Assembly (NCBI GenBank): GCA_964426385.1
Contig: CAYRQF010000001.1
Span: 21,712 to 85,711 of the forward strand
Direction of reading: 5' to 3'
DNA length: 64,000 nt
Source of the DNA: an uncultured Candidatus Saccharibacteria bacterium
GTDB taxonomy: Bacteria > Patescibacteriota > Minisyncoccia > Phycocordibacterales > CSBR16-119
The notes beneath the pieces are model-generated. The model did no database searches. It saw only the letters and a list, made by a program, of their open reading frames with translations, and had not been told where the DNA came from. Below are positions 8,006 through 48,559 of this stretch, piece after piece (the first letter of the stretch is position 1; each line of letters opens with the position of its first letter). The position numbers were made by a program, and so were the translations under genes.

Positions 8006-8011
8006 GAAATG

Positions 8012-8040: not shown

Positions 8041-8102
8041 GCCAAAAAAGCGAAAAATGATATACTCTCATTGTTTTTAGGCTATGTGCCGAAAAGACAC
8101 AT

Positions 8103-8174
8103 GGCCCCATCGTCTAACGGTTAGGACAGCAGGTTTTCAATCTGTTAATCGGAGTTCGATTCTCCGTGGGGTCA
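8103..8174 (+). tRNA. tRNA-Glu (anticodon TTC)
   Basis: Acceptor GGCCCCA/TGGGGTC, T-loop GTTCGATTC, anticodon loop TTTTCAA; possible promoter TTGCCA-N16-TATACT at 8039-8066. Confidence 0.8.
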
Positions 8175-8251
8175 CAAAATAGAGAGCTAGTTCGAGCGCT
8201 CTAGAAGTGCTACAGGTTTATAAATAAGACAGTATTATTAAGTGTTAGCAA

Positions 8252-9727: not shown

Positions 9728-9841
9728 GGCTCACAATCATATCTCTCGAGATGGGTCGAAGTGGTTATCAAGTAAACCGCCAGAAAAGCATTACTGGGTA
9801 ATAAATTTAATTGGTTCCATCTCGAGAAGGCTTACAATACC

Positions 9842-9876
9842 AAAAAGTCTTGGAAGTATTTCCAAGACTTTTTGTT
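9842..9876. terminator. bidirectional terminator AAAAGTCTTGGA-AGTAT-TTCCAAGACTTTT
   Basis: Perfect 12-bp palindrome flanked by A/T runs. Confidence 0.6.
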
Positions 9877-9890
9877 ATTGAACTAATATG

Positions 9891-9919
9891 AAAAAGCCGG
9901 CTGGTGGGCCGGCTGTTCC
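9891..9919 (-). terminator. terminator for the lpxC-like gene (GCCGGC-loop-GCCGGC with T-run on the minus strand)
   Basis: Hairpin plus AAAAA on the plus strand (TTTTT on the minus strand) immediately after the minus-strand stop. Confidence 0.5.
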
Positions 9920-9933
9920 AAAAGGTTCAATTT

Positions 9934-11282: not shown

Positions 11283-14200
11283 TTATATGGGGACTCCGCT
11301 CGAGTTTATATTTATCGGAAGCTCGCACGTGTAGATCATGTTCCAGTCTTTTCGACGTTCGTAGCTTTTGAGCGCAGTAAGCAGGGAGGCCGTACATGTT
11401 CTCTGAATACTATTACCGTTGATGTTGAGTGTGATCGGCTGAGAGAAATTCACCATATTCGGATGGAGCCAGACAGATAGGTTCGTGACATTGTTCGTTG
11501 TAACATTCACCGTGTTCCCGGTGATGGTCGCTTCAGCTTTTCCGGCCTGAAGATTGACTGTGTCTACTGCGAGACTCCAATTATTAAAGTTTGTCTGACT
11601 TGAACAGCCGCCGTCGCCCTGAGGTGTTGCACGATTGTAGGCGATCGTACCTGTGCCGTACGAGTTGATAGATAGCCACATTGTGTGTGGGCTCGGATCC
11701 TCGTTCCAGACAGCATTCCAATTACCGCCAACATTATAAGTTCTCCATGGGTTGATGGCGATGACATGATTGCGATATGGATTTCTGGAGTAGCTGTTAA
11801 CTGTACCCGTTTGGCCATTTAGGAAATTCCTCCAAGCCACTGCGCCAGGCTCTGTGGCTGTCGTCGAGGTATCGAAACCGTGTCCCGGGACCATTGGATA
11901 TTCTATAAGGCTGTCATTTGGATTGTTGGAGCCTATTAGCTGATGAGCTTGTCGTGCGAATTCTACAGCGGTCATGTGATTGCGGCACTCCATTTCTGGA
12001 TCAGCGTCGGTATTTTGATAGTAGGCGTCATTAGTTCCGTGAATAGTATGAATAGGTAGGTCGGTGAGAGACGCCCATGAGCCAAGTGACCAGGCTCCGC
12101 CATTGGCCATTACTGCCGAGAGTCTGTCATTCAAGCGATGTGCCATATGATACGATCCGATACCTCCCATAGATGTGCCGGTCACAACTATTTTGTTGTA
12201 ATCGATATTATATCGTGATGCGATCTCGGTAATGATGTCGATAAGGTAATCGTCTGCCGACGGTACGTCCCAGCGCGCAGGGTGAGTGAACATGTTTGCA
12301 TTGGTCTGGTATCCAGGAAGCATTGTACCGAACGGGGCGATAGGTGCCACGGCGATATAGTTTGAGTTATCGCTGTTCCTGCGGATAACAGATCTACCGG
12401 TCAGAGTCTCATCGTCGAGAACCCATTCGGTTATGTAACTATCGTTGGGGTCAGAAGTCCCTGGATAGTCGAGCTCTATAGGGTCAAATGATCCGCCCCA
12501 ATGTAGGAAAAACATAAGCCCGACCGGAGTATTCGGGCTGTAGTTCGGCGGAACTACCATATTGAACTCAGGTCTGTATGATTCTGTGGCAGGAGTAGCT
12601 GGGTCGTTCCATGCTGGGTATTTTGATACTAATGCAGGGAGAGTGAACTGTTGGTTGAACACTTCACCGGTTGGTTGCGCCACATAGTCATTGGGTTGGA
12701 CTTGGTCTATAACGCTATCGATAGAAGTGTTCCAGGCGGCGAGGTTCGGCTCGAGAGCTGTACGCGCTGCTCCTGATGCTGCGAGCCACTGCTCGGCTTG
12801 TGCGACTATCTCACTCTGCGATTGACCACTTCCGGCGGTAGCCCCACAGAGACCATTTATCGTTGCGGTGACGTCGATGATTTTATCCGAAGCGTAGCCG
12901 GCGGCGGTCATAGCGTTTATGATTCGTTGATTCATCGGCCATGGCCAGAGATCTTCATTGGTGAGCACGCCATCGACGTAGCGCTTCATGACAGTCGCGC
13001 CACCAGTAATACCTAGATTGTTCACAACGTTACCGCCGTTCGCAATGATGCTCGAGCAACTCGACGTGTTGTAGTTGTTCGATGTTGACCATTGGTTGTT
13101 GATACTCGTTCCACCGGTGCTCACGAAAGTGTTGTTCGTCGCTGAGTTGAAACCAGCTCCGCCGATATCACCGAGATATGGGTTACGGATATTGGTGTGG
13201 GATCCGGGCTCGATCACTCCTACACTATTCTCGAGTTGCACCCCTTTGATCTCTAGTGCAAACGGTCCAGCCCAGTCACGTGATGGGGTAGGGACATTGT
13301 GGAAACGTTGATCAGGTTTGAGATATGCGATAGAGCCTAGTATGCGAATATTTGCATTATCAGGATTGCCTTGCGCAAGGAAGGATGAATCAAATCCGTC
13401 GTGTCCAAATATTCCACTCGGCTGTTGGACGGTGTAGTTCGAGAAACTTTGCGTTGGGCTGACCTGTGTGCCGTTGTATTCGAGGAGGTTGTACGTAGCA
13501 GGCATACCGAGCGAATCCCATGTTCCGATACAGTTCTCACAGAGCGCGCCGTAACTGTTGTAGGACAAGGCAAATGCCTTTTTCGGTCCAGACATTTTCG
13601 AACCTTCCCATCGGGCGAACGCTCGACGGAACGTCGTATTGTCGCCCTCCTGAGAGTTACTAAAAGTTTTACGTGCACCTGCACCAAATCCGGCAACGTC
13701 TTCGAGTAGGTTGTTGTCACCGTGATGAACGCCGAAGATGTTGTTGTCGCCAGTATTCATCGGAGCCTTCCAGGCTACGACTCTGCGGATGATGTTGTTC
13801 GAAGAATAACCTAGAGATACGACACTTCCGCTAGAATCATAAGCGTCGAATCCTTCGAGGACGAACCAGTTGTTGTAACTGAGGTTTACAGGTTTGTTCG
13901 AACCTTGGCCATTAATTTTTACTGCACCGTCGTTCATCGCTCTCACGGTTATCGGACTTCCTGCGGTCCCGGATAGATTGTCCGGAGGGTCGATCATACT
14001 ATTCGCGCCTGTATACATACCATCTAGAAGTATGAGTGTCGCCCCTGGTCCAGCTACACTCCAAAAGTCATTTATTTTGAATGGGGAACTGATACTGAGT
14101 CCATTGCCAGTACCGGTCGGCGAAGCGTAGTAAGTTATCCCAGTTGTCCCGGTTGGTAGTTGCTCTACTACTATATTGTTCGGGGTTTGACCACCTACTG

Positions 14201-15362
14201 ATACGAGTATCGGGTCACGATCATTCCCAGACCCAGTGTATTTTACTGTGCCATTCATATTCACATCTGCTCCCGAATAGGTATTTATAATTTGATTATT
14301 TGGCGTCGAGCCTCCTACCGCAGTGAGTATGACGTCTCTGTCGTTGCCAACGCCTGCGTACTTAACCTCTCCATTACCGTTGACATCTCCAGGCCACAAA
14401 ACACGAACCCCACCTACAACTTTCGCGGCATTGGTCCCATATAGTGGAGCAGTAGATAGGTCTACCACAGAAGCTATGCTGACTGCGTTCGCGGTCATAA
14501 CAGCGAGGTGGTTTCTGTGGTGAACGGCGACATAGTAGGTTCCAGGAGTAAACGTCCCGAGTATCGGCGTTATACCATCGGTTGACATAACATCTCCATC
14601 AGCCTCTACTAGAGCCGGTTTGGATGCGACTATTGTCGCGGGGTTCGCAGAATTTCGTAACTCAACGACGATCCAGTCAACTATGGCATCATCACCGGTA
14701 GGATTTAGAACAGAACTCGATATAGTGCTTCCGGCACCACTAGTTAGAGTGTGGCCAAGGGCAGTATAGGGCTCTGTTAGAGGTATCAGGTTCGAATCAT
14801 TGAGTCCTGTGGACATTCTGTTCGTGGCCTGAATATATGGTCCCCCTAGAAAGACCCGGAGATTGTTGGTCGGGTTGTCCGGGCTTCTGCTCAAGCTATC
14901 ATCGGTAATATTGAATCGGTAGGTTACAGGTGGTCCGTCAACTCCAGTCGCTCTAGGGCCGGTGAATGCTCTAACAATGAGGTTATATTCACCTACTACC
15001 ATACTCGGACCGTAGAAGTTACCATTACTATCATCACGATATATGGCGTACGGAGCTTTGCTGTCTGACCTCTTCTTGCCGTTGATTTCAAACATAACAC
15101 TCCCTACTTCTTCTGGATCGGTCACAGCCTGAAAAGTAATCTTTTTGTTACCAGAGATATCGATAATAGCTCCATCAGCAAGTTCACCAATAGATAGCTC
15201 AGTTTCAGTATCGATAATAAGAACACTCTGTATCAGCTCATCAGAAACGATGGAGTCAGAGATACTAGCTGTAAATCTCTGATTCGAACTACTGCGCATC
15301 ACCGAGGCCGAGGATGCTAGTACAGCAACAACCGCGACCAAAAAGAGAACTTTTTGTTTCAT
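11283..15362 (-). CDS. large secreted multidomain protein: signal peptide, Ig-like region, dockerin-like Ca-binding repeats, right-handed beta-helix (pectin-lyase fold) and alpha/beta-hydrolase esterase domain
   Basis: MKQKVLFLVAVVAVLASSASV signal peptide (start probably 15362, not 15383); tandem GDVNGNGEVKYAGVGNDRDVIL / ADVNMNGTVKYTGSGNDRDPIL repeats; beta-helix-like GTTGITYYASPTGTGNG...; esterase nucleophile elbow VTGTSMGGIGS (GxSxG) and HGG-like FFLHWGGSFD. Confidence 0.7.
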   Translation of the reverse strand: MKQKVLFLVAVVAVLASSASVMRSSSNQRFTASISDSIVSDELIQSVLIIDTETELSIGELADGAIIDISGNKKITFQAVTDPEEVGSVMFEINGKKRSDSKAPYAIYRDDSNGNFYGPSMVVGEYNLIVRAFTGPRATGVDGPPVTYRFNITDDSLSRSPDNPTNNLRVFLGGPYIQATNRMSTGLNDSNLIPLTEPYTALGHTLTSGAGSTISSSVLNPTGDDAIVDWIVVELRNSANPATIVASKPALVEADGDVMSTDGITPILGTFTPGTYYVAVHHRNHLAVMTANAVSIASVVDLSTAPLYGTNAAKVVGGVRVLWPGDVNGNGEVKYAGVGNDRDVILTAVGGSTPNNQIINTYSGADVNMNGTVKYTGSGNDRDPILVSVGGQTPNNIVVEQLPTGTTGITYYASPTGTGNGLSISSPFKINDFWSVAGPGATLILLDGMYTGANSMIDPPDNLSGTAGSPITVRAMNDGAVKINGQGSNKPVNLSYNNWFVLEGFDAYDSSGSVVSLGYSSNNIIRRVVAWKAPMNTGDNNIFGVHHGDNNLLEDVAGFGAGARKTFSNSQEGDNTTFRRAFARWEGSKMSGPKKAFALSYNSYGALCENCIGTWDSLGMPATYNLLEYNGTQVSPTQSFSNYTVQQPSGIFGHDGFDSSFLAQGNPDNANIRILGSIAYLKPDQRFHNVPTPSRDWAGPFALEIKGVQLENSVGVIEPGSHTNIRNPYLGDIGGAGFNSATNNTFVSTGGTSINNQWSTSNNYNTSSCSSIIANGGNVVNNLGITGGATVMKRYVDGVLTNEDLWPWPMNQRIINAMTAAGYASDKIIDVTATINGLCGATAGSGQSQSEIVAQAEQWLAASGAARTALEPNLAAWNTSIDSVIDQVQPNDYVAQPTGEVFNQQFTLPALVSKYPAWNDPATPATESYRPEFNMVVPPNYSPNTPVGLMFFLHWGGSFDPIELDYPGTSDPNDSYITEWVLDDETLTGRSVIRRNSDNSNYIAVAPIAPFGTMLPGYQTNANMFTHPARWDVPSADDYLIDIITEIASRYNIDYNKIVVTGTSMGGIGSYHMAHRLNDRLSAVMANGGAWSLGSWASLTDLPIHTIHGTNDAYYQNTDADPEMECRNHMTAVEFARQAHQLIGSNNPNDSLIEYPMVPGHGFDTSTTATEPGAVAWRNFLNGQTGTVNSYSRNPYRNHVIAINPWRTYNVGGNWNAVWNEDPSPHTMWLSINSYGTGTIAYNRATPQGDGGCSSQTNFNNWSLAVDTVNLQAGKAEATITGNTVNVTTNNVTNLSVWLHPNMVNFSQPITLNINGNSIQRTCTASLLTALKSYERRKDWNMIYTCELPININSSGVPI

Positions 15363-15574
15363 AAAAATACTAGGACTTTGCAAAGCTGTTAATAGCCTAA
15401 TTATATGTCATTACGGCTCGTATAAATACGGATTTTGGGGGTGAGTGTGAACAACTAGACGGGTAGGCCGGGCGGTTAAGTTTAGTTGACAGTCAGATAA
15501 ATAGACGTTGTAAAACGGCCTGACGCTCCAACCAACTCAGGCATTTTACTTTGATTTCTGCCATACGTTTTAAT

Positions 15575-15658: not shown

Positions 15659-16504
15659 ATGAATCTACGCGAAATAATCAGTATCTCTAGGCCACGCTTT
15701 TGGCTATATGAAATGGGGACATACTTTATCGGTGTACTTGTGGCGACACAATTCCTCGAGGACTTTTTACTACCAGACATCCTAATCTTCGGATTTTTCT
15801 TCTTGATACCGGCGAATATTCTGATTTACGGTATTAACGATATTTTTGACTATGAGACAGATCGGCTCAATCCGAAAAAGGTAGAATACGAAGCTCTCCT
15901 CGTCCCCGACAAGCACAGAGCAGTTTGGGTATGGATTCTCGCGACGAATATTCCATTCCTCGTTTACGCATTTACGATAAACGCGAAAACAGGATTATAC
16001 CTTCTCGTATTTTATTTCTTCGCGAGTTTTTATTCTGCGACACCTATCAGGGCGAAAATCCGGCCCTTACTAGATTCACTCTTTTCTGCCGGTCACTATA
16101 TCTTTACCGGGGTATTCGGCTACTTCCTCGCGGGTGGGGAGGGGTTTCCTCTAGTCGGTGTTGTCGCAGGTATGCTATGGGCGATGGCGATGCACGCATA
16201 CTCGGCTGTGCCTGATATTAAGGCAGATACCGATGCTGGTTTCAAAACTATAGCCACATGGCTAGGTAGAAATAAAACTATCGTTATGTGTCTCGTTTTC
16301 TATATTGCCTCTGCGGTGCTTTTCTCTACACTCATCGGAGTGTTTCCACTCATTGCAGTCCTAGCCTATGTATTCCTCATGATGAAGTCTTTGAGGACAA
16401 CGGACGATAATAGGTTATTTCAAATCTATACTTATTTCCCATGGGTGAACTTCATCACACCGATGGTGTGGTCAATAATTTACATGGTAACGAAGTTCGG
16501 TTGA
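15659..16504 (+). CDS. UbiA-superfamily prenyltransferase (lycopene-elongase/CrtEb-like candidate)
   Basis: Polytopic membrane protein; first Asp-rich motif YGINDIFDYETD (NDxxDxxxD) and second motif DIKADTDAG; divergent from the crtI-crtB-crtE block. Confidence 0.7.
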   Translation: MNLREIISISRPRFWLYEMGTYFIGVLVATQFLEDFLLPDILIFGFFFLIPANILIYGINDIFDYETDRLNPKKVEYEALLVPDKHRAVWVWILATNIPFLVYAFTINAKTGLYLLVFYFFASFYSATPIRAKIRPLLDSLFSAGHYIFTGVFGYFLAGGEGFPLVGVVAGMLWAMAMHAYSAVPDIKADTDAGFKTIATWLGRNKTIVMCLVFYIASAVLFSTLIGVFPLIAVLAYVFLMMKSLRTTDDNRLFQIYTYFPWVNFITPMVWSIIYMVTKFG

Positions 16505-16506
16505 GG

Positions 16507-18021
16507 CTAGAGCTCTTTTAGGGGGTTAGGGTGTTTTATACCTTCGATACGCTTATAGGCGAGCTCAGATGATATGAGGCATATCGGCATACCGATACCT
16601 GGGTTCGTGCCAGCGCCTACATAGTAAAGATTTTCGACGCGCTTACTTTTGTTGTTCGGTCTCATAAGTGTCTGCTTCAGAGTGTGAGCGAGTCCGAGAG
16701 CTGTTCCGCCGAAAGCGTTGTAGTCGGCCTTGAACTCTTCGTGAGTATACATCGATTCGTATTCGATGATGTCTTCCAAGTCCGGAATATCTAAATCTTT
16801 CTTCATCATATTTATCACCCTGTCACGGTACCCTTTCTTCTCTGCTTCGGTAAAAGATAGGTGAGACGCCACAGGAACTAGTACGAACAGTGTCTCTTTG
16901 CCCTCTGGTGCCACAGAGGCATCTGATTTTGATGGACAAGATACGTAGTACGAAGGATCGTCAGGGAATTTGGGATTGTCGAAAACTTCCTCAAAATTCT
17001 TCTTCCAGTCTTTGGAGAAGCGTAGGTTGTGATGAGTGAGAGATGGGACTTTGCGTGAGAGGCCGAGGAAAAGAATAAACGCCGATGGTCCCATAACGGC
17101 TTTGTCCCAATACTTTTTCTTATACGTTCGCAGACTATCTTCTTTTATCAAATTCATCTCGGTGAAATTCATGTCAGCATTTGAAACCACAAAGTCTCCG
17201 GTCACCATCTCTCCGGTAGAGAGTTTGATTCCAGTTACTTTGCTGTCCTCAACTAATATTTCAGAAACAGGGGAGTTGGTGTGGATTTTGGCGCCATGTT
17301 TTGTAGCGATATTCTCTAGCGTCTCGATGACTTTGTAGATTCCGCCATCTGGGTAGTACACGCCCATATCAAAGTCGATAAAGTTCATCATGTTGTATAG
17401 AGCTGGGGTCTTGTCTGGTGCGCTACCGAGGAAAACCAATGTATATTCTAGGATCTTTTTTAGTCTGTCATCTTTGAACCATTTGTTCAGGTAGCTTTCC
17501 ATCGTTTGAAAAGGATTCATCCGGAGGCCCTCTTTCATGAAATCTTTCTGCAAGAAATCAAAAATGGAATCATAATTCCTGTACATGAACTTATCTTTCG
17601 CAAGCTCGTATTGCTCGCCAGAGATTTTTAGGTATTTTTTGATTTTCTCGCCAGATCCGGCCTCGAGCTTCTCAAATGTCTCCAAATCCTTTGAAAGGTC
17701 TGAATACATATCTAGCACCGGGAATTTTTCGTCGCCAGGGAAGAACACCCTATAAGAAGGAGAAAGTTTTGTAAGTTTTAAATGGCTTTTTATGTCTTCG
17801 CCTAAAAGGTTAAAGAAATCCTCAAAGACATCTGGCATCAGATACCATGATGGTCCCATGTCAAAAATGAAGCCTTTTTCTTCAAAGACGCTCGCCCGTC
17901 CTCCCACATGGGCGTTCTTTTCGTATAGGCTCACCTGGTAACCCTTTTTCCCCAGGAGGCAGGCTAGTCCGAGTCCACCTATACCTCCACCGATTATGAC
18001 TACATGTTTTTTAGGTACCAT
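16507..18021 (-). CDS. crtI: phytoene desaturase (CrtI family)
   Basis: N-terminal FAD fold VVIIGGGIGGLGLA; C-terminal YYVGAGTNPGIGMP CrtI signature; 504 aa. Confidence 0.8.
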   Translation of the reverse strand: MVPKKHVVIIGGGIGGLGLACLLGKKGYQVSLYEKNAHVGGRASVFEEKGFIFDMGPSWYLMPDVFEDFFNLLGEDIKSHLKLTKLSPSYRVFFPGDEKFPVLDMYSDLSKDLETFEKLEAGSGEKIKKYLKISGEQYELAKDKFMYRNYDSIFDFLQKDFMKEGLRMNPFQTMESYLNKWFKDDRLKKILEYTLVFLGSAPDKTPALYNMMNFIDFDMGVYYPDGGIYKVIETLENIATKHGAKIHTNSPVSEILVEDSKVTGIKLSTGEMVTGDFVVSNADMNFTEMNLIKEDSLRTYKKKYWDKAVMGPSAFILFLGLSRKVPSLTHHNLRFSKDWKKNFEEVFDNPKFPDDPSYYVSCPSKSDASVAPEGKETLFVLVPVASHLSFTEAEKKGYRDRVINMMKKDLDIPDLEDIIEYESMYTHEEFKADYNAFGGTALGLAHTLKQTLMRPNNKSKRVENLYYVGAGTNPGIGMPICLISSELAYKRIEGIKHPNPLKEL

Positions 18022-18833
18022 GCGTATGTTTTTATACTGATAAGGATTTTTTGCCAGGCGTTTGTTTTCGCTCTTTTTGTAAATACGTCGTAGTCTTGTT
18101 TCTCTATCTGGTCCAATATGGCTTCGTATAGATTGCCAGCTAGGAGGATAGGGTAACGGGCAACCGGTGGAAGTAGGTGAATTCCCAATTTTGCTTTTGA
18201 AAAAAGTTGCCGAGCTTGGTTAATTTTAAAAATAATAAATTCCTTTGGAATATTTTGTGTCTTTATGTTATCCTCACCTATCCCATAGTTGTTCATCTCG
18301 TCTAATGGTAAGTATATCCTATCTTTTGTTTCGTAGTCCTCTCCTATATCACGCAAGAAATTAGTTAACTGCATGGCCTCAGCCAGTGCTGTCGCATAGG
18401 GCACAGCCTCATCTCTAAAGTCTCCAAATATGTGCATCATCATGAGACCTACAGATGTAGCTGACCCATACATATAGCCTTGAAGCTCACTCATATCAGC
18501 ATAACTACGCTTTTTGAAATCCATCAACATGGATGACAAAAAGGCGTCATTGTATTTATGAGGAATATTAAACTTATGCCTAGTCATCAGCATGGCATTC
18601 ATCTCAGGTCGTGCTGAAACGCCGACTTTTTCAGATGCTCGCCAGTCACTTATCCATTCGGCCAGCTTCTCTTCATTTCTTTCTATATCGACAATGTCGT
18701 CGGGGATTCTGGTCCAGGCATAAAGAGCGTATGTGCCGAGACGGATATGTTGCGGGAAGAATCTTGTTGCAAAATAGTACCCTTTACCGAATTTCTGGTG
18801 GATTCTTCTGCAGTATTCGAAGTCGTCTATCAT
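18000..18833 (-). CDS. crtB: phytoene synthase (squalene/phytoene synthase family)
   Basis: YCRRIHQKFGKGYYFATRFFP N-terminal region and MQLTNFLRDIGEDYE...RIYLP signature. Confidence 0.8.
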   Translation of the reverse strand: MIDDFEYCRRIHQKFGKGYYFATRFFPQHIRLGTYALYAWTRIPDDIVDIERNEEKLAEWISDWRASEKVGVSARPEMNAMLMTRHKFNIPHKYNDAFLSSMLMDFKKRSYADMSELQGYMYGSATSVGLMMMHIFGDFRDEAVPYATALAEAMQLTNFLRDIGEDYETKDRIYLPLDEMNNYGIGEDNIKTQNIPKEFIIFKINQARQLFSKAKLGIHLLPPVARYPILLAGNLYEAILDQIEKQDYDVFTKRAKTNAWQKILISIKTYAWYLKNM

Positions 18834-19810
18834 CTGTCACGTTTGGTTATCTTCAGAAGTAATGCATGCCATGTTTCTGCATCTGGAATTTTTCTTAGTA
18901 ATTTCTGAGTGTCAGCGATCAGCATGTCTCGCTCTGAGTTTATCTTTTCTAGTGTTCCTGAAGTGGTCACTAGGCTTCGAAGTGTGTCTCTTTCGGTTTG
19001 GTTCAGCACCTTGCCAAAATATTTCTTGAAAGCTTTGTTTTTAATTAGATAGAAAGATACCAGTGTTGCCTGGCGAGTTTCTATGTCCTGAAAAGTCTTC
19101 TTGTTGAGCTTCTTCTCATCACCGAATATGTCGAGGAGGTCATCATCTATCTGAAATAGCACGCCCATATTTTCATTGAGGGTGCTGTATGTTTTCTGAA
19201 GTTTCTTGGATACTTTGACCCGTCTTAGAGAGAGTCCTATTTCTGCAGGGTGGGTGAAAGTATATCGCGCTGATTTGAGGATTGTTTTCTCGTCTATTTC
19301 TGTTTTGGTCCAGTTCGTACGGGTAGACATCTCAACATCCATCATCTCGCCTATAGCTACCTGCTCGACTAGTTTGCAGAATATACTATGGGACTCTGCT
19401 TCTTTATTTTGCTTTATAAAAGCTTCATGAGCCCAGTTCAGTACGAGGTCTCCTGCTAGGAGGGCGTATGAATTTCCATAATGCTGATCTTTCTCCAGGC
19501 TGTGGAGTGTGCGGGTTCCGTGTCTGGACGGTGACTTGTCGATGATGTCGTCATGGATTATAGCCATCAGATGGACGAGCTCGATAGCGATAAGTTGGTT
19601 AATTATCTGGCGATCAAGCTTCGAGGACCCATATGCCAAGTAGGCGATATACGGGCGTATTCTTTTGCCATTCTCTGCAACTCGTCTTATGTGCCCTACG
19701 ATGGCGTGAGTTTTTTTACTAGAGGTGACAGTACAAGCTCTAGCGATAGACTTATCTAGGTGAGATAAGAAAAGAGGGTCAAAGACTGTTCTGAAGTCTC
19801 CAAGGTGCAT
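18830..19810 (-). CDS. crtE: polyprenyl (geranylgeranyl) diphosphate synthase
   Basis: GKRIRP, first DDxxD (IHDDIID) and second DDxxD (QIDDDLLD) motifs; likely start at internal Met 19810, 1 nt after the trxB stop. Confidence 0.75.
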   Translation of the reverse strand: MHLGDFRTVFDPLFLSHLDKSIARACTVTSSKKTHAIVGHIRRVAENGKRIRPYIAYLAYGSSKLDRQIINQLIAIELVHLMAIIHDDIIDKSPSRHGTRTLHSLEKDQHYGNSYALLAGDLVLNWAHEAFIKQNKEAESHSIFCKLVEQVAIGEMMDVEMSTRTNWTKTEIDEKTILKSARYTFTHPAEIGLSLRRVKVSKKLQKTYSTLNENMGVLFQIDDDLLDIFGDEKKLNKKTFQDIETRQATLVSFYLIKNKAFKKYFGKVLNQTERDTLRSLVTTSGTLEKINSERDMLIADTQKLLRKIPDAETWHALLLKITKRDR

Positions 19811-19811
19811 G

Positions 19812-20741
19812 TTAAGTATTCTTATGTAGATACATGTAGATATCCTCGAGAGCTTTGACTCCGTCACCAGCGGCGATGTTGTTCTGGTGGTAGAGCACAT
19901 CCGCACAGTCACCAGCAGCCCATATGCCTGGGACGCTCGTCATCTGAGTACGAGGGTCAGTTATGATTTTTTTGTATTTATCCATCTCGACTACACCCTC
20001 GGCAAATCCGGTATTTGGGATCTGTCCTATCTCTACGAAGATACCTTTGACAGGGAGTTCCGTCTCTACTTCACCAACTTTATATTTGAGTCCTGAGACG
20101 AATTTGTCACCGAGGATAGCTGTGATCTCTGCGTTCATTACAGCTTTGGCCTTCGGGTTCGCCAAAACTTTCTCGACAGTTATCTCGTCAGCGCGAAACT
20201 CGGTAGATCGTTGGATGATGGTGACAGATGAGCAATATGCGAGCAGTTGCGCAGCCGTTTCGAGCGCGGCGTTGCCACCGCCAAGTACGGCGACGTCCTG
20301 ACCTGAGAATAGTGGTCCATCACATGAGGCGCAGTAGGTGAGACCTCGGTGCTCGAGTGCATCAGCGCCGGGGATAGATGAGTCGAGTTTTCGGCGTCCG
20401 GAGCCTGAGGTGATGAGGACTGCGCGAGTTTCGAATGATTCTCCTGCGTTGGTTATCACAGAAAATACTTTGTCAGCTTTCGAGAGACCTTCGACTCGTG
20501 CACCAGTTTTGACCGTGAGGAACTCGCCCTCGTAGTAGGCGACGTGAGCGCGCAGGTCCTTGGCGAGCTGTGAGCCAGCGATCTCGGGCGTGCCGATCCA
20601 GTTGTAGATTTTCTCAGAGACGACAGATTGTCCACCGAATTCTTCGGCAACCATTAGGGTTTTAAGTTGCTTCCTCGCAGCATAGACTGCTGCAGCTGAG
20701 CCAGCAGGTCCAGCACCAATTATTATCAAATCGTATGTCAT
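19812..20741 (-). CDS. trxB: thioredoxin-disulfide reductase
   Basis: MTYDLIIIGAGPAG FAD motif, redox-active CASCDG, second NAD(P) fold GGGNAALE; real start at Met 20741 (track ORF is N-terminally over-extended). Confidence 0.85.
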   Translation of the reverse strand: MTYDLIIIGAGPAGSAAAVYAARKQLKTLMVAEEFGGQSVVSEKIYNWIGTPEIAGSQLAKDLRAHVAYYEGEFLTVKTGARVEGLSKADKVFSVITNAGESFETRAVLITSGSGRRKLDSSIPGADALEHRGLTYCASCDGPLFSGQDVAVLGGGNAALETAAQLLAYCSSVTIIQRSTEFRADEITVEKVLANPKAKAVMNAEITAILGDKFVSGLKYKVGEVETELPVKGIFVEIGQIPNTGFAEGVVEMDKYKKIITDPRTQMTSVPGIWAAGDCADVLYHQNNIAAGDGVKALEDIYMYLHKNT

Positions 20742-22652: not shown

Positions 22653-23813
22653 CTACGGCATGAGCTGCTTCCCAATCCCACTAAAAATCTTTTTGATATT
22701 ATGCCAAGTTTGAGAGACGATGTTTGGATAACTGTTGTCTTTCTGAACGCCTTTGCCCACCATACATAGTCCATATGCAACAAACCACGTTGGATCGACA
22801 GAATTCTTACTTTTGAGACCATTCATCTTTGATGGTAGAGCTAGAGTTCTCTTCGAGATGTCTTCAATGCTTTTTACATTGGCGCCACCTCCGATGATGA
22901 TAGCTCCTGCAGGCAGACGTTCGTCTCTATTTATTTTCTTCAGGAATTTCTGGATAACGTCGAATATTTCGTTGATACGAGCATTGATGATGTCATCGAT
23001 TTTTCTCTGCTGGATGTCGGTCGTGATCTTGCCGAGCTTGATACCTTCGGCATCCTCGAGCGATATCTTGAGCCCGAGCGCGAGGTCGTTCGTTATATTA
23101 TTCGATCCGATAGGGAAGACTTTGAGCGAGATGATATTGCCGTCCTCGAATACGATAACAGAGGTGTTCTCGTCACCGATGTCGATGAGGATACACCCAG
23201 CAGTACGCTGACGCTCATCGAGTGCGACGTATGACGCTGATACTGGGCAGGCGATAACGTCTACGACATCTATACCTGCTGCATTGATAGAACTGACTAG
23301 GTCTTCGAGATGCTGATTGGCACAGTTGATGAATAGAGTAGTCACCTCTAGGCGAACTCCGCGCATGCCTTCGACTTTGCCGTATATTTCTTTGCTATCT
23401 AGTTTGAAAATTACAGGTAGTGTGTCGATGATATGTTTGTTCAGGTTTTTGAGAGACTGCTCCGAGTCTTTGACAGCTTTCTCCACATCGAGTCTGGTGA
23501 CTTCGTTATCAGCACGGGAAATTATCGCTGAGCCACGAGCCACCTTGGATTCGAGTGTGATACCGCCGATAGAAATAGTGGCTTGGCGGATCTTGATACC
23601 ACTAGAGACTTCGGCATCGTGGACCGCGAGCTCGATAGACTTCACGAGTTCTTTCTGGTCAGAAACGAAGCCTTTCTTGAGGCCTCTGGTCGGGGCGACA
23701 CCCGTTCCGATGATGCGTGAAGTTTTCGTGTCTTTATCTTTACCGTGTTCGACGACCATGACTTTGGTCGAGGAGCTACCGATATCGATACCGACAGTTA
23801 CATTTTTTGCCAT
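22653..23813 (-). CDS. ftsA: cell division protein FtsA
   Basis: Actin-like ATPase; N-terminal VGIDIGSSSTKVMVVE; SHS2 domain; immediately upstream of ftsZ. Confidence 0.85.
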   Translation of the reverse strand: MAKNVTVGIDIGSSSTKVMVVEHGKDKDTKTSRIIGTGVAPTRGLKKGFVSDQKELVKSIELAVHDAEVSSGIKIRQATISIGGITLESKVARGSAIISRADNEVTRLDVEKAVKDSEQSLKNLNKHIIDTLPVIFKLDSKEIYGKVEGMRGVRLEVTTLFINCANQHLEDLVSSINAAGIDVVDVIACPVSASYVALDERQRTAGCILIDIGDENTSVIVFEDGNIISLKVFPIGSNNITNDLALGLKISLEDAEGIKLGKITTDIQQRKIDDIINARINEIFDVIQKFLKKINRDERLPAGAIIIGGGANVKSIEDISKRTLALPSKMNGLKSKNSVDPTWFVAYGLCMVGKGVQKDNSYPNIVSQTWHNIKKIFSGIGKQLMP

Positions 23814-23862: not shown

Positions 23863-24255
23863 TTAACTAGAAAACTTTGAAAACAAACGCTTTTCCGCAG
23901 CTTCCATTCTACTACCATGGACATGATGCGCCAAATGTAGCATTCCGTGGATAACTATATATTTCAAATGTTGTCGACAACCTCGGCCGTATTCCAAACA
24001 TTCTTTCTTTACTGTTTCGACACACACAACTATTTCTCCTAGATTATCTGATAATGGGAACGATAGTACGTTGGTGTGAGAGTCGTCACCTTTGTGGATA
24101 CGAGAAAGTTTCTTTATCTCTTTGAGCGAGACAAAAGACAGAGATAGTTCATACTTGTTTCCGAGAATTTCCTTCTTCATGCGTGCGAAAAGCGCTCTTG
24201 GTAGAGCGCTTTCCTTGAGGTTGTTTATGTCTAGATTATCTCCGGCCGTTTTCAT
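23863..24255 (-). CDS. ybeY: rRNA maturation endoribonuclease YbeY
   Basis: HGMLHLAHHVHG metal-binding motif (HxxxHxxxxxH). Confidence 0.75.
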   Translation of the reverse strand: MKTAGDNLDINNLKESALPRALFARMKKEILGNKYELSLSFVSLKEIKKLSRIHKGDDSHTNVLSFPLSDNLGEIVVCVETVKKECLEYGRGCRQHLKYIVIHGMLHLAHHVHGSRMEAAEKRLFSKFSS

Positions 24256-24491
24256 TAGGCGATTTTGCCGAGTTTCTTGAGTTTGGCGTACTCAGTCCTT
24301 TTCTCCATTCGCTTTAGGGCATTCTTCTTCATAACAAATGATGAAGGCTTGCGCTCACTGTAGCGTGTATCTTTGACATGGCGAACTATGCCAGTCTCGC
24401 GGATGCGTCGTGAAAACCGGCGCATAACTGAAGCGCTCGATTCGTTCCCGTTTTTCTTTATTTCTACTACTGTTCTTGCCATAGTTGCCAT
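24255..24491 (-). CDS. rpsU: 30S ribosomal protein S21
   Basis: Basic 78-aa protein with S21-like RRFSRRIRETGIV...RYSERKPSS core. Confidence 0.7.
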   Translation of the reverse strand: MATMARTVVEIKKNGNESSASVMRRFSRRIRETGIVRHVKDTRYSERKPSSFVMKKNALKRMEKRTEYAKLKKLGKIA

Positions 24492-24537: not shown

Positions 24538-26406
24538 TTAGAAAAGGTTTTCCGGATTTAGCCGAATTTGCCATTCGGGACCGAGTCCGGAGAGTATCTG
24601 GGCGAGTTCCAAGTCTATCGTTACAGGGGTATTTATATTACCTTCATTCCACTCGGAAGCGGGAAGCTTGATGAGTATATTGGTCTCTATGTTGGGTCCA
24701 CGGTGTACAGAACGAGTGTTTGGATGATATCCTGACAGGTTCATGTCAACGAATTCTTTGATCCGGGCCCCTGCGCTCTCTTTGCCCACATGCGTGAGTT
24801 TGATAATCGTACTAAAAGGCGGATAGCGGAAGAGCTCACGACGGCCAACCTCGGCTCGGAAGAAATTTTCGAGGTCATTGTCTGTGAGGCTCGATAGAAT
24901 AGGATTATCAGGTGTGCGAGTTTGGATAATAGAGTTCTTCTCGGCGACACTCGTGACGGCGAGCGACAGGTGGAGCATGCGTTCGTATGCTTTGTAGCTT
25001 GGGATATTTTGGAGAGTCTCCATCGATATGATGACAGAGTTATCGATAGGCTCCGTGAGATAGGCGAGAGCCATCTCAGTGCCAACGAGTACGGCATCAG
25101 CCTCAGCGTAGAATTTCCCTGCGATATCTTTGGCTTTCTTCTCGCTACCCGTTACTTCTTTGTCTATATGGAATACTTTTTTCTTTGGAAATAGTTTCCG
25201 GACTTCTTCGGTGACTGTTTCCGTGCCGATACCTAGGCTGTCGAAATTCCAACTGTTGCATATAGGACAACGCAGGTTTTCATCGATAATTTTTCTAGTA
25301 TAGGCATTGCGAACTGTTCGTTTACCATCTCGCTCGTGGATAACTAGGGGTTGTCCATCGTCTTCCATTACATGTTTACAGTCGTGGCATACGACTTGGG
25401 TAGAGAGGCCTTTCCTGAGGGCAAAGAGAAAAGTCCTGCCAGGTTCTCGGATTAGGCTCGCTGTGTCGTTGGACAGCACGAAACTTTTCTTGAAAAGGTT
25501 TTCCTTGTTAGTCATGTCGCTAACGCTAAACGTTCGACTCCCAGCACTAAGTTCGAAGTCTAGAGTTTTCTTGTCGGTTGTACGAGCTATGGTTTCGACC
25601 GACAGGATGTCGTCAGCGAATATAAGATCAGTGTGCATATGACGAGCGATGAATCCTGCAAATGTGCGAATATCAAAATAAGGTTTTTTGATTGTGCGAT
25701 ATGACGACGATGATTCGTGTTCTACTATGTATGTTCCGATATCGTGACGAGGGATGAATAGAAATGCCGGCGTAGTGATGAGTAGTGTCGGTCCTGTCGA
25801 TTGCAAGACACTGTTATATTTTTCTACGATTTTTTTCTCCGATCCAAACATTGTGAAGATGTTTTCTATATCAACTCGCAGTAATTGCTCGAATTTTCGA
25901 ACTTCTTTGATTGTCGGGAGAACGAGGTGAACAGATTTACCATCAGCATGAGAATCAGAGATATATTTTTTATAAAAATCTATTCTTTTGGCGAGGGGTC
26001 GTTGCAAGGCAAAGAATCCAGCAGTATTCGATGAAACTCTCTTTTTAGGAACATCGATATCATCATACTTCTCTAGGAGGATGGAAGGGATAAAATAATT
26101 CATAACCTGCCCCACGTTACCGATGAAGTAGCGAGAGGCTTCTCTGCACGCTTCGAAGAATTCGGGGTAGAATTTCGCCCGACCTTTCACGCTTTCTATT
26201 TTCTTCAAGCCAAAACTTGCGGTTTTGATATCGCCTTTGGACTCGTTGATTGGTGAGACGCCGAGTACTATGGCGCTGATTAGCTTTTTGCGGACTTCAG
26301 TGTTTACCACATCTCCTACTTTTACCTCGCGCGCTGAGTAGTAGGTCAGAGAGTCTTTGTGGATGCTGGCCGATATGGGGCTGACCTCTATAAGTTTCAT
26401 ATTCAA
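24538..26406 (-). CDS. PriA-like primosomal protein with degenerate ATPase motifs
   Basis: N-terminal 3'-DNA-binding-domain-like region; Cys4 cluster CHDCKH...CPICN; GKSVHLVLPTI resembles the PriA segment after motif I, but no GxGK[ST] Walker A anywhere; DEEH replaced by IVEHESSSSY. Confidence 0.55.
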   Translation of the reverse strand: MNMKLIEVSPISASIHKDSLTYYSAREVKVGDVVNTEVRKKLISAIVLGVSPINESKGDIKTASFGLKKIESVKGRAKFYPEFFEACREASRYFIGNVGQVMNYFIPSILLEKYDDIDVPKKRVSSNTAGFFALQRPLAKRIDFYKKYISDSHADGKSVHLVLPTIKEVRKFEQLLRVDIENIFTMFGSEKKIVEKYNSVLQSTGPTLLITTPAFLFIPRHDIGTYIVEHESSSSYRTIKKPYFDIRTFAGFIARHMHTDLIFADDILSVETIARTTDKKTLDFELSAGSRTFSVSDMTNKENLFKKSFVLSNDTASLIREPGRTFLFALRKGLSTQVVCHDCKHVMEDDGQPLVIHERDGKRTVRNAYTRKIIDENLRCPICNSWNFDSLGIGTETVTEEVRKLFPKKKVFHIDKEVTGSEKKAKDIAGKFYAEADAVLVGTEMALAYLTEPIDNSVIISMETLQNIPSYKAYERMLHLSLAVTSVAEKNSIIQTRTPDNPILSSLTDNDLENFFRAEVGRRELFRYPPFSTIIKLTHVGKESAGARIKEFVDMNLSGYHPNTRSVHRGPNIETNILIKLPASEWNEGNINTPVTIDLELAQILSGLGPEWQIRLNPENLF

Positions 26407-39059: not shown

Positions 39060-39088
39060 TTGACAGGTAATTGGTTTGATGATAGAAT
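39060..39088 (+). promoter_or_regulatory. sigma70-type promoter TTGACA-N17-TAGAAT, with a second TTGACA 12 nt upstream
   Basis: Tandem -35 hexamers at 39048 and 39060; -10 TAGAAT at 39083. Confidence 0.45.
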
Positions 39089-39149
39089 CAAAAACACAAA
39101 TTATATAAGAACTTTAGAAGCTTATTTATTAACAAATATAAAGCGATTT

Positions 39150-40178
39150 ATGGCGATTATTTCCTTCAGACCAAAACAAGTAAGTAAGAAGCTCCTGTCA
39201 TCACTAAAAGACAGATCTTTTGATGTCATAGCGAACCGTTATGGCCTAACTGACGATGCCGAGCGGAAGACCCTAGAAGCTATAGGCAAAAAGTACGGTA
39301 TTACCCGTGAGCGTGTTCGCCAGATCGAAAATACGGCGCTCAACACTATTCGTAAGTCAAAAGAGATGGATGAGCACAAAGCTGTTTTTGTAGAGCTCAA
39401 GGCACTACTACACTCTCTGGGTGCTGTCGTGTCCGAAGAAGAGTTCCTGGATCATGTCTCGAAGGACAAGTCTACACAGAACCATATCCACCTCGCCCTC
39501 GTTCTATCTGATGATTTCTATAAGGACAAAGAAGACGAGGATTTCCGATCTCGCTGGTCTATCGATCATGAGGTTGTCGACAGTGTCCATGAGGCGCTCG
39601 AGAAGCTCTACAGTTCTCTAGGAGATGATGAGCTCGTACCTGAGAGCAAGATGATAGAGAAATTCCTGTCACATGTAAAAAACCTTTCTGAAGAGCATCG
39701 TGATCAGGAGATCGCCAAGCGATGGCTCGGACTCTCAAAGAAGATCGCAAAGAACCCACTCAACGAATGGGGTCGCGCTGACTCGAAAAATGTTAAGACT
39801 CGCGGAGTCAAAGACTATACATTCCTCGTCATGCGACGCCACGGAGAGCCTATGCACTTCCGAGAAGTAGCCGAAGCCATCACAAAAACTTTTAACAGGA
39901 AAACTCTCGCCGCAACTACTCACAACGAACTTATCAAGGACCCACGTTTCGTTCTAGTGGGCCGAGGACGCTATGCTCTCAGAGATTGGGGATACAAGCC
40001 AGGAATAGTTCGTGAGGTTATCGCTGGCATTCTGAAGGAGCACGGACCGATGGGCAAGGACGATGTTGTGGATGCAGTGCTGAAGGAAAGATTCCTCAAG
40101 CGAAACACAATCCTAGTCAATCTCCACAACCCGAAATATTTCAAGAAGACAAAAGACGGAAAATACGATAACGCTTAA
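39150..40178 (+). CDS. sigma-70 region-4-like HTH plus C-terminal HARE-HTH domain protein
   Basis: LTDDAERKTLEAIGKKYGITRERVRQIENTAL resembles sigma region 4; C-terminal FVLVGRGRYALRDWGY resembles the HARE-HTH motif; start assumed at internal Met 39150. Confidence 0.4.
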   Translation: MAIISFRPKQVSKKLLSSLKDRSFDVIANRYGLTDDAERKTLEAIGKKYGITRERVRQIENTALNTIRKSKEMDEHKAVFVELKALLHSLGAVVSEEEFLDHVSKDKSTQNHIHLALVLSDDFYKDKEDEDFRSRWSIDHEVVDSVHEALEKLYSSLGDDELVPESKMIEKFLSHVKNLSEEHRDQEIAKRWLGLSKKIAKNPLNEWGRADSKNVKTRGVKDYTFLVMRRHGEPMHFREVAEAITKTFNRKTLAATTHNELIKDPRFVLVGRGRYALRDWGYKPGIVREVIAGILKEHGPMGKDDVVDAVLKERFLKRNTILVNLHNPKYFKKTKDGKYDNA

Positions 40179-48556: not shown

Positions 48557-48559
48557 GGT

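What the first reader, a model, noticed from the sequence alone, without database searches (positions are those of the whole stretch)
24538..26406. PriA-like primosomal protein lacking Walker A and with a degenerate DEEH box
The 622-aa protein keeps the PriA N-terminal 3'-DNA-binding-like region, the segment following motif I (GKSVHLVLPTI), an SSSSY segment after a mutated DExH (IVEHESSSSY) and the Cys4 zinc ribbon. No GxGK[ST] P-loop occurs anywhere in the protein. This would make it an ATPase-dead PriA acting only as a replication-restart scaffold or DnaB-loader. It is co-transcribed with rpsU and ybeY.
Basis: seen in the sequence. Interest (0 to 1): 0.5.

Follow-up and report, generated by a model that had tools for sequence, protein, structure and literature searches.

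The report
ATPase-dead PriA in candidate-phyla bacteria
This gene encodes a stripped-down relative of the replication-restart helicase PriA that keeps the DNA-fork-binding parts but has lost every ATP-burning motif, and the same dead form is conserved across hundreds of Patescibacteria (candidate phyla radiation, CPR) species, a second natural case after Deinococcus.

Summary
ORF 24538-26406 (-) is a real PriA homologue. NCBIfam priA scores 152 bits, PDB PriA E~1e-18, and the AlphaFold model (pLDDT 89.6) matches PriA structures at Foldseek E 2e-36, TM 0.72.

No Walker A occurs in any of the six frames. DEEH reads EHES. Motif III, the second half of motif V and the motif VI arginine fingers are also gone. 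The winged-helix domain is deleted, and only 4 of the 8 CRR cysteines remain.

This is neither an artefact nor decay. The identical protein appears in independent assemblies, and none of 384 relatives retrieved (down to ~30% identity, Parcubacteria/Paceibacteria type, at least 250 species genomes) has both Walker motifs.

The family keeps the DNA-contacting positions: Tyr18/Lys61 of the 3' end pocket, motifs Ia, IV and first half of V, the ARL arginine, and the outer zinc site. It also has its own conserved replacements, such as Arg at the Walker lysine and a basic residue at the catalytic Glu.

Best reading: a conserved PriA pseudohelicase that recognises forks and recruits the replicative helicase without ATP.

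The kind is already known (Deinococcus radiodurans PriA; E. coli priA300). I found no description for CPR, and the degeneration here goes much further. Verdict: new variant of a known kind, moderate interest.

The parts
24538..26406 (-). priA-like gene, 622 aa (620 aa from the ATG at 26400): PriA pseudohelicase
   Evidence: ORF; PriA homology; fold match to PriA structures; identical protein in independent assemblies
26086..26406 (-). 3' DNA-binding domain (res 1-107). The pocket residues Tyr22 (= E. coli Y18) and Lys68 (= K61) are kept; D17 is replaced by Thr21.
   Evidence: Pfam PF17764 23.6 bits. Family conservation: Y 379/380, K/R 378/380, T/S 373/380. Pocket residues as listed in PMC5778457.
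26020..26085 (-). Short linker (res 108-129) where canonical PriA has the ~90-residue winged-helix domain and the start of helicase lobe 1
   Evidence: Alignment with E. coli PriA shows E. coli ~106-220 unmatched. No PriA-like_WH Pfam hit, whereas E. coli PriA hits it at 105.6 bits. The dWH E. coli PriA structure 6dcr is the second-best fold match.
25507..26019 (-). Degenerate RecA-like lobe 1 (res ~130-300)
   Evidence: phmmer/MAFFT alignment to PriA; AF2 alpha/beta pattern; no DEAD/ResIII Pfam hit versus the E. coli control
25969..26010 (-). Motif I remnant ALQRPLAKRIDFYK (res 133-146): no glycine-rich P-loop, and Arg141 at the Walker lysine position
   Evidence: R at the K230 column in 362/380 relatives.
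25711..25722 (-). Motif II remnant EHES (res 229-232) in place of DEEH
   Evidence: Family: D320->E/D, E321->K/H/R in ~300/380, E322->E in 371/380.
25663..25689 (-). Aromatic-rich-loop equivalent KKPYFDIRT (res 240-248); Arg247 is conserved
   Evidence: Aligned to E. coli 330-338; R338 column R in 364/380; ARL role from PMC5175346
25588..25623 (-). Motif III remnant IFADDILSVETI (GSATP lost)
   Evidence: S356 -> D in 342/380
24787..25506 (-). RecA-like lobe 2 (res ~301-540, includes the CRR). Motif IV LRKGL and the first half of motif V, VGTEM, are kept. The KGHH half of motif V and the motif VI GRAGR are lost.
   Evidence: R427 374/380, G429 377/380, T539 376/380; no Helicase_C Pfam hit
25249..25395 (-). 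Reduced Cys-rich region (res 338-386). Only the outer CxxC...CxxC zinc site remains (C340, C343, C380, C383). Asp342 and the near-invariant Trp386 lie at the positions of the E. coli PriB-docking residues.
   Evidence: Cys pattern CC----CC in the query clade versus 8 Cys in 87 wider relatives. D438 column D in 360/380, T482 column W in 375/380. Docking residues from PMC10175261.
24538..24786 (-). C-terminal domain (res 541-622) plus stop codon
   Evidence: AF2 beta-alpha-beta fold; full-length fold match to PriA; relatives hit Pfam PriA_C
24255..24491 (-). Downstream 78-aa S21-like gene (probable divergent rpsU), 46 bp after priA
   Evidence: Sub-threshold S21 hits in Pfam and NCBIfam; conserved next to priA in 39/80 loci
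23863..24255 (-). ybeY (rRNA maturation RNase); its start overlaps the S21-like stop by 1 nt
   Evidence: Pfam YbeY 83.9 bits, TIGR00043 78.5 bits; sequence
22653..23813 (-). ftsA, the next gene of the conserved priA-S21-ybeY-ftsA-ftsZ string
   Evidence: Pfam FtsA/SHS2_FTSA; synteny

Best explanation
The gene encodes the PriA (primosomal protein N') of a Patescibacteria/CPR bacterium in a form that has become a pseudohelicase.

Shown computationally: it has the PriA fold, made of the 3' end-binding domain, two RecA-like lobes, a zinc-bound Cys-rich insert and a C-terminal domain. It lacks the winged-helix domain and every element that binds or hydrolyses ATP.

Inferred mechanism: it still recognises abandoned forks or D-loops. 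It would do so by capturing the leading-strand 3' end in the conserved 3'BD pocket and gripping the template strands with the retained nucleic-acid-contacting motifs (Ia, ARL arginine, IV, first half of V, CTD). It would then serve as a passive landing pad that recruits the replicative helicase DnaB, directly or through an unidentified partner. The likely docking site is the conserved CRR surface (Asp342 ... Ser-Trp-Asn 385-387).

It cannot translocate or unwind. Any lagging-strand clearing must be done by another helicase, or restart is limited to forks that already expose single-stranded DNA.

The dead state is ancient and under purifying selection across a large Parcubacteria/Paceibacteria-type clade. 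The window's own subclade has gone one step further and lost the inner zinc site.
For: - **PriA homology:** NCBIfam priA E 2e-44; PDB PriA E~1e-18; AF2 pLDDT 89.6, pTM 0.87. The top nine Foldseek PDB hits are all PriA (E 2.4e-36, TM 0.72), followed by a gap to generic helicases at E~5e-8, TM~0.3.
- **ATP site lost:** no P-loop in any frame. Motifs I, II, III, V (second half) and VI are replaced. There are no DEAD, ResIII or Helicase_C Pfam hits, while E. coli PriA hits all three.
- **Not an error or a pseudogene:** the identical protein is found in an NCBI record and two Logan assemblies. There are 797 50%-identity clusters at E<=1e-30 and 250 species genomes. Of 384 retrieved relatives, 375 have neither the Walker A nor the DExH pattern and none has both.
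- **Selective retention of DNA-binding positions and conserved lineage-specific replacements:**
- **Precedent that PriA works without ATPase:** E. coli K230R (PMC5778457) and the D. radiodurans PriA pseudohelicase, which binds fork DNA and DnaB (PMC4504706).
Against: - No biochemical data exist for this family. ATPase loss, fork binding and DnaB recruitment are all inferred.
- I could not read whole genomes, so a second, canonical PriA in the same organisms is not excluded. Only the window and 80 flanks, 1.02 Mb in total, were negative.
- The score to the curated priA equivalog model is below its cutoff (151.9 vs 230.35).
- Alignment within the motif I remnant is uncertain. It aligns as a gap in one run and as substitutions in others, so 'Arg at the Walker lysine' is tentative.
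- No replication-partner genes lie in the window.
Confidence: 0.75

Rival explanations
1. Neofunctionalised PriA paralogue. The organisms keep a canonical PriA elsewhere, and this ATPase-dead copy does something else. One possibility is a DNA-structure-binding factor tied to the conserved S21-like/ybeY/ftsA/ftsZ neighbourhood, such as coordination of division or chromosome handling.
For: The gene is linked on the same strand to S21-like, ybeY, ftsA and ftsZ in 39/80 loci. It falls below the NCBIfam priA equivalog cutoff, and NCBI often names it 'hypothetical protein'. Whole genomes could not be inspected.
Against: No second PriA-like sequence was found in the window or in 80 related loci, 1.02 Mb in total. 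The full PriA architecture and the 3' end pocket residues are kept, which fits the ancestral job. CPR genomes are small and rarely keep paralogues of housekeeping genes (general knowledge). Linkage of priA to translation or division genes is also seen in model bacteria: E. coli priA lies beside cytR-ftsN.
Confidence: 0.12
2. Still an active motor. ATP (or another NTP) is bound through a non-canonical site, and the protein unwinds DNA.
For: The two RecA-like lobes are intact and confidently modelled. A Glu at the third DEEH position and an Arg near the old P-loop are conserved. A second, weaker nucleotide site has been proposed for E. coli PriA (PMC5778457).
Against: The P-loop, the Walker B catalytic Glu (now basic), motif III, the motif V KGHH and both motif VI arginines are lost together, in all 380 aligned relatives. 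A single K230R change already kills E. coli PriA ATPase. The Deinococcus protein, which is much less degenerate, is inactive.
Confidence: 0.04
3. Decaying gene or sequencing/assembly artefact (a frameshift hiding the Walker A).
For: Reduced genomes do lose repair genes, and the Pfam support is marginal.
Against: There is no P-loop in any frame. The reading frame is uninterrupted and alignable end to end with relatives at 30-59% identity. The identical protein occurs in independent assemblies. There are 16 invariant and ~60 near-invariant positions across 82 sequences, and the fold is high-confidence.
Confidence: 0.02

Closest known systems
Deinococcus-Thermus PriA pseudohelicase (D. radiodurans PriA; Lopper et al. 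2015, PMC4504706)
   Same: [quoted passage not shown] In Deinococcus the protein is shown to lack ATPase and helicase activity, yet it binds fork DNA and DnaB. The organisms lack recognisable PriB/DnaT.
   Different: According to that paper, Deinococcus keeps a recognisable GxGRT-type loop; the paper discusses only motifs I and II. Here the glycine-rich loop is gone altogether. Motifs III, V (second half) and VI are also lost, the winged-helix domain is deleted, and in this subclade one of the two CRR zinc sites is lost. The phylum is different (Patescibacteria), so an independent origin is inferred but was not tested, because no Deinococcus sequence was available to me. There is no biochemistry for this family.
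E. coli PriA K230R/A/D (priA300) engineered ATPase-dead alleles
   Same: They show that PriA can assemble a primosome and support restart without ATP hydrolysis (PMC5778457). The window protein is the natural, fixed equivalent.
   Different: priA300 is a point mutant with every domain intact, and it depends on PriB/DnaT. It fails in the PriC pathway, in Mu replication and in other settings. The CPR protein has been remodelled throughout the nucleotide site and lacks WH. Its partners are unknown.
Canonical PriA (primosomal protein N'; TIGR00595, PDB 4NL4/6DGD/8FAK)
   Same: Same overall fold and domain order (3'BD, HD1, HD2 with CRR insert, CTD). It conserves the 3' end pocket Tyr/Lys, motif Ia Pro, motif IV RxG, motif V GT(E/Q)M, the PP(F/W) element and the outer zinc site.
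   Different: No WH domain, no ATPase motifs, half a CRR, and about 110 residues shorter. It scores below the curated equivalog cutoff.
E. coli PriA winged-helix deletion construct (PDB 6DCR)
   Same: It is the second-best structural match (E 5.6e-31, TM 0.71). The CPR protein is in effect a natural dWH PriA.
   Different: 6DCR is an engineered, catalytically competent helicase.

Membership tests
PriA / primosomal protein N' (canonical replication-restart helicase) | N-terminal 3' DNA-binding domain (Pfam PF17764) | tested here: met
   23.6 bits vs cutoff 22.7, residues 19-107. Pocket Tyr and Lys are conserved family-wide.
PriA / primosomal protein N' (canonical replication-restart helicase) | Overall PriA three-dimensional architecture (3'BD, two RecA lobes, CRR, CTD) | tested here: met
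   AF2 pLDDT 89.6. The top nine Foldseek PDB hits are all PriA, E 2.4e-36, TM 0.72, then a 28-order gap in E-value.
PriA / primosomal protein N' (canonical replication-restart helicase) | SF2 helicase motifs I (GxGKT) and II (DEEH) for ATP binding and hydrolysis | tested here: not met
   No P-loop in any frame. DEEH reads EHES. No DEAD/ResIII Pfam hit, in contrast to the E. coli control.
PriA / primosomal protein N' (canonical replication-restart helicase) | Motifs III, V (KGHH) and VI (GRAGR arginine fingers) | tested here: not met
   Replaced by ADDIL, ALAYL and TSVAEK. No Helicase_C hit.
PriA / primosomal protein N' (canonical replication-restart helicase) | Winged-helix DNA-binding domain (PF21213) | tested here: not met
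   E. coli residues ~106-198 have no counterpart. No Pfam hit, versus 105.6 bits for E. coli.
PriA / primosomal protein N' (canonical replication-restart helicase) | Cys-rich region binding two zinc ions (8 Cys) | tested here: not met
   Only the outer 4 Cys are present in the query and its clade of 31 close relatives. 87 wider relatives keep all 8.
PriA / primosomal protein N' (canonical replication-restart helicase) | Score above the curated equivalog cutoff (NCBIfam TIGR00595, 230.35 bits) | tested here: not met
   151.9 bits; E. coli PriA scores 729.6.
PriA pseudohelicase (kind defined by D. radiodurans PriA) | Clear descent from PriA, with non-consensus Walker A and B conserved across a lineage | tested here: met
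   for descent. for lineage-wide loss: none of 384 relatives has both motifs.
PriA pseudohelicase (kind defined by D. radiodurans PriA) | Walker lysine replaced by arginine | tested here: inconclusive
   R aligns to K230 in 362/380. The surrounding loop is so degenerate that the alignment there differs between runs.
PriA pseudohelicase (kind defined by D. radiodurans PriA) | No ATPase or helicase activity in vitro; binding to fork DNA and DnaB retained | not testable with these tools
   Needs purified protein. The assays are described in PMC4504706.
PriA pseudohelicase (kind defined by D. radiodurans PriA) | Shared ancestry with the Deinococcus-Thermus pseudohelicase clade | not tested
An independent origin is inferred from the different phylum and the different pattern of loss.

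The most novel reading that the evidence does not exclude
A large part of the candidate phyla radiation (Parcubacteria/Paceibacteria-type lineages) may run replication restart with a single, minimal, obligately ATP-independent PriA. In this reading the former nucleotide pocket has been refilled by a conserved charge network: acidic residues plus Arg in place of the P-loop, and a basic residue in place of the catalytic Glu. That network would lock the two RecA lobes in one conformation. The conserved CRR surface (Asp ... Ser-Trp-Asn/Arg) would have been retooled to dock DnaB or a still-unknown CPR loader directly, without PriB or DnaT. That would be an independent, much deeper repeat of the Deinococcus case and a natural minimal PriA scaffold.
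Probability: 0.2. Interest if true: 0.65.

Novelty: new variant of a known kind. Interest (0 to 1): 0.42.

Why it matters
[quoted passage not shown] This finding adds a second and far larger exception. It spans hundreds of species-level genomes of a major uncultivated radiation, and the loss goes much further: the P-loop, Walker B, motif III, the arginine fingers and the winged helix are all lost, and in this subclade one zinc site as well.

The family is in effect a natural separation-of-function experiment. The positions kept across ~380 diverged sequences mark what PriA needs for fork recognition and partner recruitment. The positions lost mark what is needed only for motor activity.

It also gives annotators a concrete reason why these proteins fall below curated PriA thresholds and are often called 'hypothetical'. 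Finally, it raises a testable question of how CPR bacteria with tiny genomes reload DnaB.

Tried and rejected
- **Frameshift or cryptic Walker A:** scanned all six frames of the gene +-300 nt and found none.
- **Chance occurrence of the P-loop pattern:** it appears in 2 of 384 relatives, at non-homologous positions (P0215 res 161, P0351 res 590), so it is a chance match and not a displaced motif.
- **Walking outward to find where canonical motifs reappear:** I searched from P0231, the most canonical-looking relative, which still reads DEEH. This returned 118 more Parcubacteria-type proteins, all without a P-loop. The boundary with canonical PriA was not reached.
- **Second PriA copy:** tblastn of E. 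coli PriA and of the query against the window plus 80 related loci (1.02 Mb) found only the known gene. This is a weak test, because each locus covers only ~2% of a genome.
- **Literature:** no paper in the library links PriA to Patescibacteria, Parcubacteria or CPR beyond a passing mention in another phylum. Searches for other degenerate PriA lineages returned only the Deinococcus work.
- **Foldseek against AFDB:** the library was not available.
- **Model coordinates:** not exposed, so the proposed salt-bridge network in the vestigial pocket could not be measured.
- **Promoter/terminator scan:** not informative, since counts were at or below shuffle expectation.
- **Organism labels:** 'uncultured Candidatus Saccharibacteria' on many TPA MAGs sit interleaved with Nomurabacteria/Paceibacterota records of the same similarity. 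I treat them as generic Patescibacteria labels, not as evidence for Saccharibacteria.
Full report
**The observation**

The minus-strand ORF 24538..26406 exists and encodes 622 aa from a TTG. Public gene calls for the identical protein start at the ATG two codons downstream, giving 620 aa (P0001). A regex scan of all six frames of the gene plus 300 nt on each side finds no [AG]xxxxGK[ST] and no GxGK[ST]. The only in-frame GK[ST] is the ADGKS that aligns downstream of motif I. A Walker A hidden by a frameshift is therefore excluded. The same protein sequence is recorded from an NCBI contig and two independent Logan assemblies.

**Is it a PriA homologue?**

Yes.
- Pfam recognises only the PriA 3' DNA-binding domain, just above threshold (23.6 vs 22.7 bits).
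- NCBIfam priA models match over residues 145-548 at E 2e-44 to 5e-46, although below the curated equivalog cutoffs (151.9 vs 230.35 bits for TIGR00595).
- phmmer against PDB sequences finds only PriA chains (E~1e-18, residues 146-535).
- An AlphaFold2 model built on an 82-sequence alignment is confident (mean pLDDT 89.6, pTM 0.87, no segment below 50).
- Foldseek against the PDB returns nine PriA chains first (8FAK E 2.4e-36, TM 0.72). The next hits are generic SF1/SF2 helicases at E~5e-8, TM~0.3.
- The second-best match is the engineered winged-helix-deletion PriA, 6DCR.

**Anatomy relative to E. coli PriA**

I fetched E. coli priA as a reference and aligned it with the query and its relatives.

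| Element | E. coli PriA | Query | Status |
|---|---|---|---|
| Motif I | LLAGVTGSGKTEVYL | FALQRPLAKRIDFYK | no glycine-rich loop |
| Motif II | DEEH | EHES | lost |
| Motif III | GSATP | ADDIL | lost |
| Motif V, second half | KGHH | LAYL | lost |
| Motif VI | GRAGR | no counterpart | both arginine fingers lost |
| Motif Ia | VPEI | LPTI | kept |
| ARL arginine | R338 | FDIR | kept |
| Motif IV | NRRGF | LRKGL | kept |
| Motif V, first half | IGTQM | VGTEM | kept |

- By established knowledge of SF2 helicases, the first five elements bind or hydrolyse NTP, and the last four contact nucleic acid.
- E. coli residues ~106-220 have no counterpart. This stretch covers the winged-helix domain and the N-terminal edge of lobe 1.
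- As a control, E. coli PriA hits Pfam PriA_3primeBD, PriA-like_WH, DEAD, ResIII, Helicase_C, PriA_C and Zn_ribbon_PriA. The query hits only the first. Relatives add only PriA_C and Zn_ribbon_PriA.
- The CRR keeps only the outer CxxC...CxxC pair. The inner four cysteines of the two-zinc E. coli CRR read -/D/N/T.

**It is a family, not an accident**

- The first homologue search gave 199 hits. The 120 listed are all 576-674 aa proteins of Patescibacteria, named where named at all as Nomurabacteria, Paceibacterota or Minisyncoccia, at 32-59% identity.
- An exhaustive HMMER search of 1.84 billion cluster representatives gave 797 proteins at E<=1e-30 and 9,691 at E<=1e-3.
- A scan of one genome per GTDB species found 250 genomes encoding a relative.
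- A second search started from the most canonical-looking member (P0231, which still reads DEEH). It added 118 further Parcubacteria-type proteins, such as Zambryskibacteria and Pacebacteria.
- Of the 384 proteins collected, 375 have neither a Walker A nor a DExH pattern and none has both. The two Walker-A-like matches are at non-homologous positions.

In an alignment of 380 full-length members with E. coli PriA:

| E. coli position | Family residue (count out of 380) |
|---|---|
| K230 (Walker lysine) | Arg 362 |
| D320 | Glu/Asp |
| E321 (catalytic Glu) | Lys/His/Arg, about 300 |
| E322 | Glu 371 |
| S356 | Asp 342 |
| Y18 (3'BD pocket) | Tyr 379 |
| K61 (3'BD pocket) | Lys/Arg 378 |
| D17 (3'BD pocket) | Thr/Ser 373 |
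| P253 | 374 |
| R338 | 364 |
| R427 | 374 |
| G429 | 377 |
| T539 | 376 |
| P631 / P632 | 377 / 380 |

The 3'BD pocket roles are those described in PMC5778457. This pattern, with the nucleotide site rewritten and then frozen while DNA-contacting positions are preserved, is what purifying selection on a non-catalytic DNA-binding protein would produce.

The window's own clade (31 closest relatives, at least 39% identity) additionally lost the inner zinc site. By contrast, 87 of the more distant relatives keep all eight cysteines. Some short members (576-589 aa) seem to have deleted the motif I segment altogether.

**Context**

- The gene lies in a housekeeping region: murA-F, mreB, holB, ftsA/ftsZ, aminoacyl-tRNA synthetases, dnaK/dnaJ/rpoA.
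- Downstream on the same strand are a 78-aa S21-like gene after a 46-bp spacer, ybeY overlapping it by 1 nt, then ftsA and ftsZ.
- The S21 assignment is sub-threshold in both Pfam and NCBIfam (18.8 and 17.4 bits). ybeY is solid.
- No minus-strand terminator-like site lies between priA and ftsA, but that scan has little power.
- The string priA / S21-like / ybeY / ftsA / ftsZ is conserved on one strand in 39 of 80 related loci. Co-transcription is plausible but not demonstrated.
- No DnaB, loader, PriB, DnaT or SSB gene is in the window. No second PriA-like sequence occurs in the window or the 80 loci (1.02 Mb).

**Mechanism**

Shown: PriA fold, no ATP site, and conserved fork-contacting residues.

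Inferred, using the E. coli PriA/PriB/fork cryo-EM structure as a guide (PMC10175261):
- The 3'BD binds the leading-strand 3' end.
- HD1, with the ARL, wedges at the junction.
- HD2, CRR and CTD hold the lagging-strand template.
- In E. coli the CRR surface formed by Asp438 and Ser481-Thr482-His483 docks PriB. In this family those columns are Asp (360/380), Ser/Gly, a near-invariant Trp (375/380) and Asn/Arg/Lys. That suggests a conserved but retooled partner surface.
- PriA ATPase is dispensable for the PriA-PriB route in E. coli (K230R). D. radiodurans PriA, a natural pseudohelicase, binds forks and DnaB directly.
- So the most likely job is ATP-independent fork recognition and recruitment of DnaB, or of a loader.

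I put about 0.9 on 'catalytically dead' and about 0.65-0.7 on 'still the restart initiator', which gives 0.75 for the combined statement as worded.

**Rivals**
- **Paralogue with a new role (0.12).** It cannot be excluded without whole genomes.
- **Non-canonical ATPase (0.04).** It is contradicted by the simultaneous loss of all five NTP elements.
- **Decay or artefact (0.02).** It is refuted by family-wide conservation and independent assemblies.

**Comparison with what is known, and novelty**

The kind is established: a PriA that has become a pseudohelicase in Deinococcus-Thermus (PMC4504706). The 2017 review lists Deinococcus as the sole exception to conservation of PriA helicase activity (PMC5778457).

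I found no paper in the searchable library describing this for Patescibacteria/CPR. Databases name these proteins 'primosomal protein N'' or 'hypothetical protein' without comment.

Compared with the Deinococcus case as that paper describes it (a recognisable loop with GKT changed to GRT, and poor motif II), this family has lost far more. It lacks the P-loop, motifs III and VI, the winged-helix domain and, in this subclade, one zinc site. It also belongs to a different phylum. I could not obtain a Deinococcus sequence, so independence is inferred and not tested.

I therefore rate it a new variant of a known kind. It is of moderate interest to replication-restart specialists, and useful as a natural minimal PriA and as an annotation fix.

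Noticed in passing
window 15659-19912: A run of isoprenoid/carotenoid-type genes: UbiA prenyltransferase (15659-16504, +), flavin amine-oxidase/phytoene-desaturase-like (16507-18021, -), squalene/phytoene synthase (18000-18833, -) and polyprenyl synthetase (18830-19912, -). A pigment- or squalene-type pathway seems unusual for a metabolically reduced CPR genome.
   Followed up: no
window 7433-10000: A low-GC segment (0.379 for 8001-10000, against ~0.45 elsewhere) lies next to two tRNA genes (7433-7505 -, 8103-8174 +). It carries a 491-aa ORF (8252-9727, +) with weak SF1-helicase/AAA_30/Schlafen-helicase hits. This may be an integrated or defence-type island.
   Followed up: no
window 11283-15383 (-): A 1366-aa ORF with no family assignment apart from a sub-threshold Abhydrolase_2 match (22.7 vs 23 bits). 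It is a large protein of unknown function.
   Followed up: no
window 24255-24491 (-): The 78-aa 'rpsU' is only a weak, sub-threshold S21 match in two libraries, yet it is conserved next to priA and ybeY in 39/80 related loci. It is probably a divergent CPR form of S21.
   Followed up: partly
loci L004-L083 (record titles): Many 'MAG TPA_asm: uncultured Candidatus Saccharibacteria bacterium' records carry this Parcubacteria-type PriA. They are interleaved in similarity with Nomurabacteria/Paceibacterota records. The Saccharibacteria label looks like a generic placeholder for Patescibacteria rather than a true placement.
   Followed up: no
proteins P0231, P0267, P0291: A few family members still read DEEH at or near the motif II position (confirmed by alignment only for P0231) while lacking any P-loop. 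These could be relics of the ancestral state or reversions, and may help order the steps of motif loss.
   Followed up: partly
window 47414-49873 (+): A second actin/FtsA-like ORF (380 aa; FtsA domain 30.3 bits, just under the 31.8 cutoff) is followed by a 437-aa ORF with no family hit. This may be a PilM-like or divergent cytoskeletal pair.
   Followed up: no
window 39060-40178 (+): A 372-aa protein combines sigma-70 region 4 with a HARE-HTH domain, which is an unusual architecture for a sigma-like factor.
   Followed up: no
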